Source: an uncultured Dehalococcoidia bacterium
GTDB taxonomy: Bacteria > Chloroflexota > Dehalococcoidia > Lucifugimonadales > GCA-2712585
Assembly: GCA_964439905.1 (NCBI GenBank)
Contig: CAYTPK010000025.1
Coordinates: forward strand, 1,987 to 65,986
DNA length: 64,000 bases
Direction of reading: 5' to 3'
Shown here: one piece after another, positions 728-36,510 of the stretch
Numbering within the stretch: position 1 is the stretch's first letter
Layout of the letters: every line of letters begins with the position of its first letter
Notes under the pieces: generated by a model
What the model saw: only the letters and a program-made list of their open reading frames with translations
Databases searched by the model: none
What the model was told of the DNA's origin: nothing
Position numbers and translations under genes: made by a program

Positions 728-2326
728 TTAAACTCCCTTAAGCTCTAAGCTTTTTACTTCACATGTCTCAAGGTTCATCATTCTTACAAGATGGTTGTTG
801 GTATCAGCGACAAAAAGGCTTCCTCGACTCAATGAAATATCACCTGGCTCGTATACCTGTGAATCAAGCCCCGTGCTATTCCTAAATCCAAATATCCCAC
901 TTCCTAATATGGTTCGCACTTGGCTGGTCGCTATGTCCAATATCTTGATCTTATGATTATAGGTATCAGCGATATATATGTTTCCATCATAATATTCCAC
1001 GCCCATTGGATGTTGCAAAAGTGCATTCGCGATGTCCCCATCTTCATCGCCAAAGACAAAAAGTCCCTTACCAATTAAGGTGCGAACATATCCTTGCCCA
1101 TCGGCAGGGAACCAACGAACTGAACTAGTCTCGCTGTCAACAAAGAAAATATTTTTGCCATCTGTGGTAATACCGCTAGTTTGAGCAAGTTGGGCCTCAG
1201 ACAACGTATCGTCCAAGATCCCCTCTCGACCAGTACCGACATAAGGAATGATTTTATTTTCCGTCTCTTCTAAGATCCATATTTGATGTGAACCCGCCAT
1301 TGCTATAAAAAGAGTGGTCCCGATAAGAACTAAATCCCATGGCGAATTTAAACTGGTTGTTTTAGTTTCTCCTCCAAGACTGCCCCATGATCCCTGTTCT
1401 CCAATACCCGCCATCGTGGTTACAGTCCTTCTAACAAGATCGACCTTTCTTATTGCATGGTTTTCAGTGTCCGCTATATACAGCCATTCTCCATTCAAGG
1501 CTAAACCTTGAGGGTGATCAAAAGTCGCTGACGTGTAATCGCCGTCTAAAAAACCTGGTGAAGATCCACCGATAATGCTATGAGTTTCCCCATCAAAATC
1601 TGTTATCAAAATACGATTGTGATTTGTATCAGAAATATACAGGCGCGAATTAACAGAATCTGCTAACAGCTTACCAGGGAATGCCAAAGCGTTGTCATGG
1701 GTATTTACCACTTTTTTGTGAAGAGGCTTCGTGTCTAATATTCCACTCTGCGTATACGCATGTATCATGTTTTTCAACAAATCATCAAAAACCTTATATG
1801 GCAATTCACCTTCGTGTTTACCAATAACTTTTCCTATTGGATCGATAAATATTAAAGTAGGCCAAGCCCTTATCGCATAATTTTTCCACACCAAAAACTG
1901 ATTATCATTCACAACAGGGTGACTCAATTCATTTCTTAAAACCGCTTGTTTAAGATTAGCGGTTTCCATTTCCCCGGTAAATTTAGCTGCGTGCACCCCG
2001 ATAACAACCAATTCTCGGTGATACTTCTCTTCTAGCTTCCGCAACTGCGGAAGAAGGTGAATGCAATTAATTCAACAGTAGGTCCAAAAATCTAAAATCA
2101 CGATCTTTCCACTAAGCTCTCTAAGCGTTAGTGGTTTATCTGTGTTGATCCATTCTAAGCCCTTTGGAAATTCCGGAGCCGTAATTTGACTCTTAAACCT
2201 TGCTTCAGACACACTGTCCCTCCCAGATGCAGAATAGCCCCTATTACCTAGTACCAAGGCTTCCCTAATTGTAGTCCAAATCTTCTCTGTTTGGTCCATA
2301 AACAAATTGAGAGGATAAACACTCAC
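728..2326 (-). CDS. Thioredoxin-fold + NHL-repeat protein (NHLRC2-like), predicted selenoprotein; TGA at 2072-2074 read as Sec; 532 aa
   Basis: Track ORFs 2072..2326 and 728..2044 share a frame and are separated by TGA plus 9 sense codons. The junction reads [19 protein letters not shown] (CCINC motif with U). A hairpin follows. The C-terminal part has repeated NHL blades (ADTxNHxIR). Confidence 0.7.
2036..2053 (-). promoter_or_regulatory. Candidate bacterial SECIS stem-loop
   Basis: The mRNA reads CUUCCGC-AGUU-GCGGAAG, a perfect 7-bp stem with a GU-containing tetraloop. It starts 18 nt 3' of the in-frame UGA. Confidence 0.5.
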
Positions 2327-29418: not shown

Positions 29419-30890
29419 ACAACATAAACGAATTCCAAAGGAAATTGCTCATGGATCGCAGTGTACCCGGTAGGATAGGTTCGATCCTACCTGACCTGGA
29501 TGTACCCAAACAAAAACTGCCTGGGCCAGAGTTGCTCCGCGACAATTTAGAATTTCCGGAATTATCTGAACCCGAAATTGTGCGCTATTTTACGAACTTA
29601 AGTCGGCTAAATTTTTCTATAGACACAAACTTTTACCCACTAGGAAGTTGTACTATGAAGTACAACCCTAAAATTAATGACGAAATTGCCTTCGCTCCGA
29701 GTTATGGTGGAATCCATCCAAATCAACCAATTGAAGAAGTACAGGGTGCATTAACAATCCTTTACAGGCTTCAAGGATATTTAAGAGAAATCACAGGGAT
29801 GTCTGGTGTAAGCTTGGCTCCCCTAGCGGGCGCTCAGGGAGAACTTGCTGGTGTCCTCATGATGAGACGATATTTGATAGACAATGGACAACCTCAGCGA
29901 CTGAAGATGCTGATCCCAGATAGTGCCCATGGAACTAACCCTGCATCCGCAAAAATGGCCGGATTTAACGTAGTATCAGTTCCAACCGACGATTCTGGCA
30001 ACACCGATCTCGAAGCGCTGAGGAAAGAAGCAACAAACGACCTTGCAGGAATTATGATTACCCTCCCAAGTACTCTAGGCTTATTCGATCAGAACATTGT
30101 GGAGATTTGTAACATCATTCACCATGCTGGAGGCCTTGTTTATGCGGACGGAGCTAATATGAATGCACTTCTAGGCCAGGTGAAAATAGGTGAGTTGGGA
30201 TTTGATGTTATGCACCTAAATCTCCACAAGACTTTCAGTACGCCTCACGGAGGTGGCGGACCAGGAGCAGGACCAGTGGCAGTCAAATCTATGTTAGAGC
30301 CATACTTACCTACTCCTGTTATAGATGTCCAGCAATCATCTGATGAAAACAGCTACTATCTAAAAAGCCCGGACAAATCTATTGGGAAGCTGGCGGCCTT
30401 CCATGGAAACTTCGGTGTTCTGGTAAGGGCATATGTCTATATAAGATCCCTTGGAGACTACGGCCTAAAACAAATCAGCCAAAATGCCGTTTTAAATGCA
30501 AACTATATTAAGGAACATCTAAAAGATTATTATAACCTTCCGTTCGACAGGAATTGCATGCACGAAGCCGTGTTTTCTGCAACCAAGCATAAGGACAAAG
30601 GCGTGAATGGGCTTTCCATATCAAAACGATTATTGGACTACGGTTTCCATGCACCTACGATGTATTTTCCTCTAACTGTTGACGAAGCTCTACTAGTAGA
30701 ACCCACAGAAACTGAAAGTAAAGAGACCCTGGATTTATTCATTGAAACAATGAAAACAATTGACCATGAAGCCCAATCCCAACCAGATCTAGTACATGAC
30801 GCCCCTCACAATACGCCTATTAGAAGATTGGACGAAGCCAGAGCTGCCCGGCAACCAGATCTTCGTTGGTCACGTTCAGAGGAGTCTTGA
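29415..30890 (+). CDS. gcvPB: Glycine dehydrogenase (decarboxylating) subunit 2
   Basis: PLP-Lys region HLNLHKTFSTPHGGGGPG, 491 aa. Confidence 0.9.
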   Translation: MNNINEFQRKLLMDRSVPGRIGSILPDLDVPKQKLPGPELLRDNLEFPELSEPEIVRYFTNLSRLNFSIDTNFYPLGSCTMKYNPKINDEIAFAPSYGGIHPNQPIEEVQGALTILYRLQGYLREITGMSGVSLAPLAGAQGELAGVLMMRRYLIDNGQPQRLKMLIPDSAHGTNPASAKMAGFNVVSVPTDDSGNTDLEALRKEATNDLAGIMITLPSTLGLFDQNIVEICNIIHHAGGLVYADGANMNALLGQVKIGELGFDVMHLNLHKTFSTPHGGGGPGAGPVAVKSMLEPYLPTPVIDVQQSSDENSYYLKSPDKSIGKLAAFHGNFGVLVRAYVYIRSLGDYGLKQISQNAVLNANYIKEHLKDYYNLPFDRNCMHEAVFSATKHKDKGVNGLSISKRLLDYGFHAPTMYFPLTVDEALLVEPTETESKETLDLFIETMKTIDHEAQSQPDLVHDAPHNTPIRRLDEARAARQPDLRWSRSEES

Positions 30891-31281: not shown

Positions 31282-31405
31282 CCGGTCTCCTCATTTGATT
31301 GCCACTCTAACGATGAATTATCCCAAAAATGCACCATTCTTCCGCTGCATAGGTTGTTCGGTGTAGGATTAGAAAACATTATACATAACTTAAGGAGCTT
31401 GACTG

Positions 31406-31867
31406 ATGATTATAGAAACGGGCAGCTTAGCCCCAGATTTTAATCTGACGGATCAAAATGGCCGCAATATAACTCTAAGCCAATACAGAGGACAAAAAAA
31501 CGTAATACTTTCTTGGCACGTCTTTGATTTTACAGGCGGGTGAACTAACCAAGTCTCTTCATTTAACCGAATTATTGGTGATTTTGAAAAGATTTCTTCC
31601 CAGGTTCTGGGAATCAGTACTGACAGTCAACACTCGCACCGTGCATGGTCGAACGCATTGGGAGGTATCAAATATCCATTACTGGCAGATTTTTACCCAC
31701 AAGGAGAAATGACAGAATCATACGGTATATTAAATATCGCTACCGGAGCTCCTTTGAGGGCAGTCGTCATAGTAGACAAAAATGGTATGGTGAGATTCGC
31801 CAAAGAATACCCTCCAGGCTCTATTCCAGATCCAAGTTGTATACTGGAATTCCTGGCAACTCTTTAA
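31406..31867 (+). CDS. AhpE-like (AhpC/TSA family) peroxiredoxin, predicted selenoprotein; TGA at 31541-31543 read as Sec; 153 aa
   Basis: AAGGAG RBS 8 nt before ATG 31406. 45 sense codons are followed by TGA, then the frame continues into track ORF 31658..31867. The motif APDFNL...VFDFTGG-TGA-TNQ places TGA at the peroxidatic Cys. Confidence 0.7.
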
Positions 31868-36390: not shown

Positions 36391-36510
36391 TCCCTGGTGG
36401 TTAGAGCGGGGTGGTCCCACCCGTTACCATTCCGAACACGGAAGTGAAACGCCCCAGCGCTGACGATACTGCCTTGGCAACGGGGTGGGAAAATAAGCCA
36501 CTGCCAGGGT
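36391..36510 (+). rRNA. rrf: 5S ribosomal RNA (no 16S or 23S within the window)
   Basis: CCCUGGUGG...GGUCCCACC...CCAUUCCGAACACGGAAGUGAAACGCCCCAGCGC...CACUGCCAGGG, followed by a T6 run (36510-36515). Confidence 0.9.

What the first reader, a model, noticed from the sequence alone, without database searches (positions are those of the whole stretch)
31406..31867. Second predicted selenoprotein: AhpE-like peroxiredoxin with UGA at the peroxidatic Cys position
An ATG at 31406, 8 nt after AAGGAG, opens a frame of 45 codons: MIIETGSLAPDFNLTDQNGRNITLSQYRGQKNVILSWHVFDFTGG. It meets TGA at 31541-31543. It then continues in frame as TNQVSSFNRIIGDFEKISSQVLGISTDSQHSHRAWSNALGGIKYPLLADFYPQGE... to the stop at 31867, giving 153 aa.

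The track reports only the C-terminal 69 aa. In AhpC/TSA (AhpE/BCP-type) peroxiredoxins the motif is F-T-x-x-C-[TP]. Here it reads F-T-G-G-U-T, so the UGA sits exactly on the catalytic Cys.

SECIS evidence is weaker than for the first case. There is an imperfect stem-loop, ACCAA...TTGGT, with an inner TTC/GAA helix (31548-31579). There is also a clean 7-bp hairpin, TTCCCAG-GTT-CTGGGAA (31597-31613), but it starts about 56 nt from the UGA. That is farther than usual.
Basis: partly seen in the sequence, partly recalled or inferred. Interest (0 to 1): 0.75.

Follow-up and report, generated by a model that had tools for sequence, protein, structure and literature searches.

The report
Selenocysteine peroxiredoxin gene, missed by annotation
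The "stop" codon inside this small antioxidant-enzyme gene almost certainly encodes selenocysteine at the catalytic site, which makes it a genuine but ordinary member of a selenoprotein family already catalogued in marine bacteria.

Summary
ATG 31406 to TAA 31867 is one 153-codon frame interrupted only by TGA at 31541-31543. Read through, it is a complete AhpC/TSA peroxiredoxin. Its closest solved relative is the 1-Cys peroxiredoxin AhpE of M. tuberculosis (predicted fold TM 0.95-0.96). The TGA sits exactly on the peroxidatic Cys.

The TGA is invariant in all 87 distinct orthologous genes recovered: 80 species-level genomes (mostly Dehalococcoidia, three Entotheonella) and short metagenome contigs. 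Four independent assemblies carry a gene identical to the window's. Codon-position variation shows both halves are translated in one frame. The nearest Cys form is 47% identical.

Two hairpins follow the UGA and are conserved. Hairpin 1 (31551-31595) is specific to the Sec family and has SECIS-like spacing. Hairpin 2 (31597-31613) is kept beyond what coding explains.

No sel genes or tRNA-Sec lie in the window, so the machinery is untested. The family was already listed as "Prx, TxxU" in the 2008 GOS selenoproteome, so this is a new member of a known kind. Minor oddities are Val in place of the active-site Pro, and uncertainty over which hairpin binds SelB.

The parts
31392..31397 (+). Shine-Dalgarno-like AAGGAG, 8 nt upstream of the start codon
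   Evidence: Read directly from the sequence.
31406..31867 (+). Complete selenoprotein coding sequence: 153 codons including the Sec codon, plus the TAA stop. It encodes an AhpE-like 1-Sec peroxiredoxin.
   Evidence: Translation. Pfam AhpC-TSA E 6.2e-32 over the full domain. PDB AhpE E 5e-31. AlphaFold pLDDT 95.7 and TM 0.95-0.96 to AhpE. Third-codon-position variation dominates on both sides of the TGA in one frame.
31541..31543 (+). In-frame TGA, predicted selenocysteine codon (U46), at the peroxidatic Cys position in the first turn of helix alpha2
   Evidence: Aligns with Cys45 of MtAhpE and with the Cys of all Cys homologues. Invariant in 87 of 87 distinct orthologous genes. Identical in four independent assemblies.
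31520..31534 (+). Active-site lead-in V39-F-D-F-T43. Thr43 (31532-31534) of the TxxU motif is present. Val39 (31520-31522) replaces the Pro of the canonical PxxxTxxC motif.
   Evidence: Alignments to AhpE and homologues. H-V/I is found at this place in all Sec orthologues.
31757..31759 (+). Codon of Arg118, the conserved active-site arginine (Arg116 of MtAhpE)
   Evidence: Invariant column R118 in alignments A1 and A4.
31551..31595 (+). Hairpin 1, the best SECIS candidate. Lower stem 31551-31556/31590-31595, middle stem 31558-31561/31585-31588, upper stem ACCGA 31566-31570 / UUGGU 31575-31579, loop AUUA 31571-31574 (27 nt after the UGA).
   Evidence: strand folding gives -10.6 kcal/mol, z -2.87. 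All 79 distinct orthologous stretches fold to one hairpin here, MFE -10 to -23, with the loop 23-30 nt after the UGA. It is the most structured 42-nt window of the gene in 30 orthologues. Mean z is -2.69, against -0.15 in 15 Cys controls. 72.5% of cells are paired, against 27-50% when slid, and 9 pairs change on both sides.
31597..31613 (+). Hairpin 2: UUCCCAG-GUU-CUGGGAA, overlapping the S-Q-V-L-G-I codons, with its loop 60 nt after the UGA. It is conserved, and its role is open: an accessory element or the SelB-binding element.
   Evidence: -9.0 kcal/mol, z -2.86. 99.4% of cells are paired in 79 sequences, with compensatory changes at three pairs. T at alignment column 57 occurs in 63 of 67 sequences, against 21 expected from codon usage. 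The 6-bp core also arises in Cys paralogues from coding alone.

Best explanation
Window 31406-31867 is a single functional gene for a 153-residue AhpE-type (1-Cys class) peroxiredoxin in which the peroxidatic residue is selenocysteine (U46), encoded by UGA 31541-31543.

Inferred mechanism of decoding: during translation an mRNA structure just downstream recruits SelB carrying Sec-tRNA(Sec), so the UGA is read as Sec instead of stop. That structure is hairpin 1 at 31551-31595, possibly together with the adjacent hairpin 2 at 31597-31613.

Inferred catalysis: the selenolate sits at the N-terminus of helix alpha2 and is activated by Thr43 and Arg118. It attacks a peroxide and becomes a selenenic acid. 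An external thiol reductant then regenerates it, since no conserved resolving Cys exists.

Shown here: a continuous reading frame, full domain and fold, UGA on the catalytic Cys column, invariance of the UGA across 87 orthologues, and a conserved Sec-specific downstream RNA structure.

Inferred only: actual Sec insertion, the presence of selABCD in this genome, which hairpin binds SelB, and the identity of the reductant.
For: 1. Frame and domain. One frame is interrupted only by TGA. Pfam AhpC-TSA covers residues 6-131 and profile positions 2-123 of 124, E 6e-32.
2. Family. The best solved relatives are M. tuberculosis AhpE (E 5e-31 to 1e-29), with UGA on Cys45. The AlphaFold model has pLDDT 95.7, and the top 12 PDB matches are all AhpE, at TM 0.95-0.96 and rmsd 1.1-1.4 A. 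Residue 46 opens helix 46-55.
3. Sec/Cys pair and conservation. All 80 genome loci and the metagenome contigs have TGA at this codon. The closest Cys form (P0012) is 47% identical. The TGA columns have zero diversity in 87 distinct genes, while codon position 3 varies 2-4 times more than positions 1 and 2 on both sides of it.
4. Not an error. Four independent ENA assemblies carry an identical 465-nt gene.
5. Orthology. The synteny gcvPA-gcvPB-cupin-Prx-trmI is kept in L008, L009, L012-14 and L019.
6. RNA. See the evidence listed for hairpin 1 and hairpin 2 under parts.
7. Standard genetic code. TGA ends 9 of 36 long open frames in the window.
8. Sec use in this genome and lineage. A second gene in the window has UGA at a Cys-Cys redox motif followed by a textbook SECIS-like hairpin. 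Dehalococcoidia MAGs are reported with 46-49 selenoproteins (PMC13326102).
9. Prior listing. The same subfamily (HIFDFTGGUTNQV, 52% identical) is listed as a selenoprotein in the GOS data set.
Against: No selA, selB, selD or tRNA-Sec lies in the 64-kb window or in the flanks of 87 related loci, so the machinery is unverified for this genome.

In the minimum-energy fold, the window's hairpin 1 has an AUUA loop with no G in its first two positions. It therefore fails one criterion of the published bSECIS model (PMC13188914). Only 36 of 79 orthologues meet that criterion. My own implementation of the model did not discriminate the true UGA from pseudo-sites (59% against 51%).

No Rfam family matches the region. 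The canonical active-site Pro is replaced by Val. There is no direct protein or selenium evidence.
Confidence: 0.9

Rival explanations
1. The gene is a pseudogene, or a nonsense allele of a Cys-peroxiredoxin. Translation stops at codon 46 and no functional enzyme is made.
For: Under table 11 the frame stops after 45 codons. Standard gene calling yields only fragments.
Against: The TGA is invariant in 87 distinct orthologous genes from 80 species-level genomes, down to about 50% protein identity. Purifying selection (position 3 much more variable than positions 1 and 2) acts in one frame on both sides of it. Synteny is conserved. A conserved RNA structure, specific to the TGA-containing family, follows the codon.
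Confidence: 0.02
2. The TGA is a sequencing or assembly error for TGC/TGT (Cys) or TGG (Trp).
For: A single-base change would restore a sense codon. Public protein sets show 'W' at this site.
Against: Four independent metagenome assemblies have an identical 465-nt gene with TGA. All other orthologues also have TGA in the DNA. The 'W' comes from gene calls made with a TGA=Trp table, since the tool reports that the DNA does not translate to the query under table 11.
Confidence: 0.005
3. The UGA is decoded, but not as selenocysteine. The genome might use a reassigned code (UGA = Trp or Gly), or the codon might be read through by a near-cognate tRNA (Trp or Cys).
For: The Sec machinery was not found in the window. 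Gene callers preferred a TGA=Trp table on short contigs.
Against: TGA terminates 9 of 36 long open frames in the window. A scan found only two in-frame TGAs with coding sequence on both sides, and both fall on redox Cys positions. Trp or Gly at the peroxidatic position would abolish peroxidase chemistry (established knowledge of peroxiredoxins). A downstream hairpin specific to the UGA family is the hallmark of SelB-dependent recoding. The lineage is reported to be rich in selenoproteins (PMC13326102).
Confidence: 0.04
4. The gene is a selenoprotein, but the SelB-binding element is hairpin 2 (31597-31613). Hairpin 2 has a 7-9 bp stem and an invariant G-U-N loop. Hairpin 1 would then be a folded spacer that brings hairpin 2 close to the ribosome, making a bipartite SECIS.
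For: Hairpin 2 meets the loop, stem and energy criteria of the bSECIS model in all 79 sequences: a 3-nt loop starting G-U and 99.4% of cells paired. It is kept beyond coding needs. It resembles the SECIS-like hairpin of the other selenoprotein gene in the window (CUUCCGC-AGUU-GCGGAAG). The loops of hairpin 1 are not conserved in sequence and lack the G in 43 of 79 orthologues.
Against: Its loop lies 60 nt after the UGA, outside the 16-37 nt range of the model (PMC13188914). The G-U of the loop and the 6-bp core are forced by the invariant Q-V-L-G codons and also appear in Cys paralogues. Hairpin 1 is the element that distinguishes the Sec family from the Cys family.
Confidence: 0.2

Closest known systems
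Prokaryotic selenoprotein family 'Peroxiredoxin (Prx), PF00578, TxxU motif' (Zhang & Gladyshev 2008, GOS selenoproteome, PMC2398784; listed in the review PMC13188914)
   Same: The domain is PF00578, Sec replaces the peroxidatic Cys in a T-x-x-U motif, and the source is marine bacteria. The GOS supplementary data set contains reads JCVI_READ_1170303 and 1709184 with the motif HIFDFTGGUTNQV. The first is 52% identical to the window protein over 126 residues.
   Different: That family is a broad bin of 253 reads covering several Prx subtypes. The AhpE-like subtype, its hosts (Dehalococcoidia and Entotheonella), its Val-for-Pro motif and its two-hairpin downstream structure were not singled out in what I could read.
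AhpE of Mycobacterium tuberculosis (Rv2238c; PDB 1XXU, 1XVW, 4X0X), a 1-Cys peroxiredoxin
   Same: It has the same length of about 153 aa and the same fold (TM 0.95-0.96, rmsd about 1.1 A). Thr and Arg sit at the same active-site positions, the catalytic residue is in the same column, and there is no conserved resolving Cys.
   Different: Identity is 35-36%. AhpE has Cys where this protein has Sec, and Pro38 where this protein has Val39. AhpE is reduced via mycothiol and mycoredoxin (my own knowledge; the titles of the solved AhpE entries mention only mycothiol), and the reductant here is unknown.
PrxU, the selenocysteine peroxiredoxin of Eubacterium acidaminophilum (Sohling et al. 2001; NCBIfam NF040737 peroxi_PrxU)
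   Same: It is an experimentally established bacterial peroxiredoxin with Sec at the peroxidatic position.
   Different: It belongs to a different Prx subfamily and is larger (profile length 233). The window protein scores 61 bits against a cut-off of 270, so it is not a PrxU equivalog.
Bacterial SECIS consensus model (bSECISearch; summarised in PMC13188914, Fig. 2)
   Same: Hairpin 1 lies in the coding region immediately after the UGA. Its loop starts 27 nt after the UGA (range 16-37), its MFE is -10.6 kcal/mol (threshold -7.5 or lower), its upper stem has 5 bp and its loop has 4 nt.
   Different: There is no G in the first two loop positions of the window's minimum-energy fold. A second conserved hairpin with a G-U-N loop follows at 60 nt, which the model does not foresee.

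Membership tests
Peroxiredoxin (AhpC/TSA, PF00578) | Full-length match to the AhpC/TSA domain above the curated threshold | tested here: met
   110.6 bits against a cut-off of 26, E 6.2e-32, covering residues 6-131 and profile positions 2-123 of 124.
Peroxiredoxin (AhpC/TSA, PF00578) | Peroxidatic Cys/Sec in the first turn of helix alpha2, with Thr/Ser three residues before it (TxxC/U) | tested here: met
   The motif is F-T43-G-G-U46. The UGA column equals the Cys column of all homologues and Cys45 of AhpE. The predicted helix spans 46-55.
Peroxiredoxin (AhpC/TSA, PF00578) | Conserved active-site Arg | tested here: met
   R118 is invariant in alignments A1 and A4 and aligns with Arg116 of MtAhpE.
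Peroxiredoxin (AhpC/TSA, PF00578) | Pro of the PxxxTxxC motif, seven residues before the catalytic residue | tested here: not met
   The window has Val39, preceded by His38. All Sec orthologues and the nearest Cys homologue P0012 have H-V/I here. This is a departure in one motif residue, not in fold or domain.
AhpE subfamily (1-Cys peroxiredoxin) | Closest sequence and structure relatives are AhpE, and no conserved resolving Cys is present | tested here: met
   The top 7 PDB sequence hits and the top 12 fold hits are MtAhpE. The only Cys of the window protein (C144) is not conserved among orthologues: it is S, E or D elsewhere.
Bacterial selenoprotein (SelB/SECIS-dependent UGA decoding) | In-frame UGA aligned with a functional Cys in homologues (a Sec/Cys pair), and conserved in orthologues | tested here: met
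   87 of 87 distinct orthologous genes have TGA. Cys forms start at 47% identity.
Bacterial selenoprotein (SelB/SECIS-dependent UGA decoding) | Stem-loop just downstream of the UGA with loop spacing 16-37 nt, an upper stem of at least 4 bp, a loop of 3-9 nt, and MFE of -7.5 kcal/mol or lower | tested here: met
   Hairpin 1 has spacing 27 nt, a 5-bp upper stem, a 4-nt loop and -10.6 kcal/mol. It is conserved and specific to the Sec family.
Bacterial selenoprotein (SelB/SECIS-dependent UGA decoding) | [quoted passage not shown] | tested here: not met
   The window's loop is AUUA in the minimum-energy fold. 36 of 79 orthologues have the G. Hairpin 2 has G-U-N, but at 60 nt. The review notes that a subset of real bSECIS elements fail the model (PMC13188914).
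Bacterial selenoprotein (SelB/SECIS-dependent UGA decoding) | selA, selB, selC (tRNA-Sec) and selD in the same genome | not testable with these tools
   None is in the 64-kb window or in the flanks of related loci. The rest of the genome is not available. Indirect support: a second UGA/Cys-pair gene with a SECIS-like hairpin in the window, and a lineage reported as selenoprotein-rich (PMC13326102).
Bacterial selenoprotein (SelB/SECIS-dependent UGA decoding) | Selenium actually incorporated at the UGA | not testable with these tools
   This needs 75Se labelling or mass spectrometry.
PrxU equivalog (NCBIfam NF040737) | Score above the curated cut-off of the model | tested here: not met
   61.3 bits against a cut-off of 270. 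No NCBIfam model reaches its cut-off for this protein.
GOS selenoprotein family 'Prx (TxxU)' | PF00578 domain with a TxxU motif, and homology to listed members | tested here: met
   The motif is T-G-G-U. The window protein is 52% identical over 126 aa to JCVI_READ_1170303 from the paper's supplementary data set.

The most novel reading that the evidence does not exclude
Sec insertion in this family may use a bipartite SECIS. A variable hairpin 1 would act as a folded spacer. An invariant G-U-N hairpin 2, lying 60 nt after the UGA and overlapping the universally conserved Q-V-L-G codons, would be the element that SelB binds. That would be a spacing class outside the current 16-37 nt bacterial model. 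In addition, a peroxiredoxin clade would work without the 'invariant' active-site Pro.
Probability: 0.15. Interest if true: 0.55.

Novelty: new member of a known kind. Interest (0 to 1): 0.3.

Why it matters
Practically, this gene is mis-annotated. Standard pipelines report a 69-aa fragment. Public protein sets carry the family with Trp at the catalytic site, because short contigs were called with a TGA=Trp table. No NCBIfam model recognises it. Correcting this restores a complete antioxidant enzyme and marks the organism, a marine Dehalococcoidia relative, as a selenocysteine user.

Scientifically it adds little. Sec-peroxiredoxins have been known since 2001 and are abundant in ocean metagenomes. 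Two modest points deserve a specialist's attention:
- A whole AhpE-like clade has Val in place of the active-site Pro.
- Two conserved hairpins follow the UGA, and it is unclear which of them is the SelB target.

Tried and rejected
- bSECIS model scan. My own Python implementation was satisfied at 59% of true UGAs and at 51% of pseudo-UGA positions in the same genes. The window itself failed the strict version. The test does not discriminate, and I did not use it as evidence.
- RNAalifold. On the gapless 79-sequence alignment it returned only hairpin 2, because the helices of hairpin 1 shift register between sub-lineages. I therefore used per-sequence folding, a sliding-window profile and a fixed-register pair count.
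- Rfam. Gathering and permissive searches found no SECIS-like family.
- Sec machinery. ARAGORN on the window and all loci, and tblastn with E. coli SelA, SelB and SelD, found only EF-Tu through the SelB GTPase domain.
- Other selenoprotein genes in the 1.5 Mb of flanking DNA, sought to define the lineage's SECIS. Only off-frame artefacts of GC-rich DNA clustered.
- Metagenome scan with the window's other candidate selenoprotein (thioredoxin-like/NHL). It returned only Cys-Cys forms, so it gave no comparative SECIS.
- Neighbourhood clustering for a conserved redox partner. None was found. Only synteny with gcvP, a cupin gene and trmI appeared in the closest lineages, and a Cys-Prx paralogue lies upstream in 13 loci.
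- Promoter and terminator scan. Nothing was found on the + strand. The only 'terminator' is hairpin 2 read on the minus strand, which I dismissed because the T-tail is not conserved in the GC-rich orthologues.

Full report
**Observation**

- AAGGAG lies at 31392-31397 and ATG at 31406.
- The frame runs 45 codons to TGA 31541-31543, then 107 more codons in the same frame to TAA 31865-31867.
- The ORF listing shows the pieces a normal gene caller would see: a 45-aa N-terminal ORF and a 69-aa TTG-initiated C-terminal ORF at 31658-31867.

**What the protein is**

With Cys substituted at the TGA, the 153-aa product matches Pfam AhpC-TSA over essentially the whole profile: residues 6-131, profile positions 2-123 of 124, 110.6 bits, E 6e-32.
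- The best solved relatives by sequence are seven entries of M. tuberculosis AhpE (Rv2238c), a 1-Cys peroxiredoxin, at E 5e-31 to 6e-29. The residue-by-residue alignment puts the TGA on the catalytic Cys, Thr43 on the active-site Thr and Arg118 on the active-site Arg.
- I built an AlphaFold model from a 68-sequence alignment, using the 99%-identical database protein P0001 as target. It has pLDDT 95.7 and pTM 0.92, and residue 46 opens helix 46-55.
- Its twelve best PDB matches are all MtAhpE, at TM 0.95-0.96 and rmsd 1.1-1.4 A.
- [quoted passage not shown] is therefore accurate.
- One departure: the Pro of the canonical PxxxTxxC motif is Val39, preceded by His38. This holds in every Sec orthologue and in the nearest Cys homologue.
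- The only Cys of the protein (C144) is not conserved, so a 1-Sec mechanism with an external reductant is the likely chemistry. This is an inference.

**Is the TGA real and decoded?**

A protein search returned eleven full-length clusters (50-99% identity) with "W" at the site. Their DNA has TGA. The W is an artefact of gene calls made with a TGA=Trp table on short contigs.
- Four independent ENA assemblies carry a 465-nt gene identical to the window's, TGA included. This excludes a sequencing error.
- A scan of one genome per species returned 80 loci. They are mostly Dehalococcoidia or Chloroflexota MAGs (one labelled SAR202), with three Candidatus Entotheonella and one unclassified MAG. Every one has TGA at this codon.
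- Across 87 distinct genes the three TGA columns show no variation.
- Codon position 3 is 2-4 times more variable than positions 1 and 2 both upstream and downstream of the TGA, in the same frame. Both halves are therefore translated as one protein.
- The closest Cys-containing form is 47% identical (P0012, FTRFCTEQ), so a classical Sec/Cys pair exists.
- The gene is syntenic (gcvPA-gcvPB-cupin-Prx-trmI) with the nearest genomes. The closest is a Tara Oceans Dehalococcoidia MAG contig, with Prx 82% and GcvPB 92% identical.
- TGA is an ordinary stop in the window, ending 9 of 36 long open frames. Only two in-frame TGAs have coding sequence on both sides and sit in a redox motif, and both fall on Cys positions. 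This argues against a reassigned genetic code.

**RNA structure after the UGA**

The window folds into two adjacent hairpins.
- Hairpin 1 spans 31551-31595 at -10.6 kcal/mol, z -2.87. Its upper stem is ACCGA/UUGGU, its loop is AUUA, and the loop starts 27 nt after the UGA.
- Hairpin 2 spans 31597-31613 at -9.0 kcal/mol, z -2.86. Its loop GUU starts 60 nt after the UGA.

Evidence for hairpin 1:
- In 79 distinct orthologous stretches (gapless alignment A3), the hairpin 1 region always folds into a single hairpin. MFE ranges from -10 to -23 kcal/mol (mean -16.8), and the loop starts 23-30 nt after the UGA.
- In a sliding 42-nt profile over 30 genes, the window starting 12 nt after the UGA is the most structured of the whole gene (mean z -2.5). 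The hairpin 2 region ranks second.
- I used 15 Cys controls at the equivalent position: four nearest Cys homologues and eleven Cys paralogues from the same genomes. They have mean z -0.15, against -2.69 for the Sec family.
- In one fixed register, hairpin 1 has 72.5% of cells paired, against 27-50% for slid partners, and nine pairs change on both sides. The pair-count measure alone is only moderately beyond shuffles, at 44 of 500. Its helices shift register between sub-lineages, which is why RNAalifold missed it.

Evidence for hairpin 2:
- It is 99.4% paired, with compensatory changes at three pairs.
- Part of it is forced by the invariant Q-V-L-G codons, and its 6-bp core also appears in Cys paralogues.
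- Even so, the T that extends the stem occurs in 63 of 67 genes, against 21 expected from local codon usage.

**SECIS criteria**

I tested the published bacterial model against hairpin 1 (PMC13188914, Fig. 2, read). The model asks for a loop of 3-9 nt, an upper stem of 4-16 bp, a G in the first two loop positions, spacing of 16-37 nt, and MFE of -7.5 kcal/mol or lower.
- Hairpin 1 of the window meets spacing, stem, loop size and energy, but not the loop G.
- Only 36 of 79 orthologues have that G.
- Hairpin 2 meets every criterion except spacing.
- My own scan with these rules did not discriminate true from pseudo sites, so I give it no weight.
- Rfam has no matching family.
- The other candidate selenoprotein in the window has its UGA at 2074-2072 on the minus strand, in the motif DFWTYC-U-INC. 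It has a textbook hairpin, CUUCCGC-AGUU-GCGGAAG, with the loop 25 nt after the UGA.
- That hairpin resembles hairpin 2 more than hairpin 1. This keeps open a bipartite reading, in which hairpin 1 is a folded spacer and hairpin 2 binds SelB. I rate hairpin 1 as the SECIS as more likely, because of its position and because it is the Sec-specific element.

**What could not be shown**

No selA, selB, selD or tRNA-Sec is in the window or in the flanks of related loci. The rest of the genome is not available. The support for Sec use is indirect: the second UGA/Cys-pair gene in the window, and a report that Dehalococcoidia MAGs carry 46-49 selenoproteins (PMC13326102). No conserved redox partner gene was found.

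**Comparison with what is known**

- Sec-peroxiredoxins are established. PrxU of Eubacterium acidaminophilum was described in 2001, as cited in PMC13188914.
- "Prx, pfam00578, TxxU" was among the most abundant selenoprotein families in the GOS metagenomes, with 253 sequences (PMC2398784).
- The GOS supplementary data set contains reads with HIFDFTGGUTNQV that are 52% identical to the window protein. The same subfamily was therefore already catalogued.
- The protein is not a PrxU equivalog (61 bits against a cut-off of 270), and no NCBIfam model reaches its cut-off.
- I found no paper that links AhpE-type enzymes with selenocysteine forms.

**Verdict**

It is a new member of a known kind, not a new kind. 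Interest is low to moderate (0.3). Its value is mainly in correcting annotation. Two small open points remain: the Val-for-Pro active site, and the role of the second conserved hairpin.

Noticed in passing
window 728-2297 (- strand); TGA at 2074-2072; hairpin 2053-2036 (-): This is a second candidate selenoprotein, a thioredoxin-like domain fused to NHL repeats. Its in-frame UGA lies in DFWTYC-U-INC, where 77 of 80 metagenome homologues have Cys-Cys. It is followed by a textbook SECIS-like hairpin, CUUCCGC-AGUU-GCGGAAG, whose loop starts 25 nt after the UGA.
   Followed up: partly
window 31597-31613 and alignment A3 columns 56-74: Hairpin 2 overlaps the invariant Q-V-L-G codons and is maintained beyond coding needs. 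The stem-extending T occurs in 63 of 67 genes against 21 expected. Three pairs show compensatory changes, some through paired amino-acid changes (Asn/Ile to Asp/Val, and Ala/Gly-GGC to Ser/Gly-GGA). Its function is unexplained.
   Followed up: partly
window 31517-31522 (His38-Val39): The Pro of the PxxxTxxC peroxiredoxin motif is replaced by Val (or Ile), preceded by His. This holds in all 87 Sec orthologues and in the nearest Cys homologue P0012. The top PDB sequence hit happens to be the F37H mutant of MtAhpE.
   Followed up: partly
database proteins P0001-P0011 (loci L001-L007, L176-L179): Public protein collections hold this family translated with Trp at the Sec codon, because short contigs were gene-called with a TGA=Trp table. 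Two of these products also run past their natural TGA stop (P0005 and P0006, at 177 and 170 aa).
   Followed up: yes
loci L015, L016, L018, L022-L026, L031, L035, L041, about 500 nt upstream of the Sec-Prx gene: A Cys-containing peroxiredoxin paralogue (FTGVCT[DT]EMC ... NAQVLGIS) lies directly upstream of the Sec-peroxiredoxin in 13 Dehalococcoidia genomes. It is not present at this position in the window.
   Followed up: partly
loci L043, L058, L066: The same Sec-peroxiredoxin, with both hairpins, occurs in Candidatus Entotheonella. That is a different phylum, which suggests horizontal transfer.
   Followed up: no
window 36393-36509 (+): A 5S rRNA gene stands alone. No 23S or 16S rRNA was detected anywhere in the 64-kb window.
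   Followed up: no
window 30796-30890: The mechanically listed start of the cupin ORF (30796) overlaps the end of gcvPB (30890) by 95 nt. tblastn matches to some orthologues begin only around residue 14-34, so the real start is probably further downstream.
   Followed up: no
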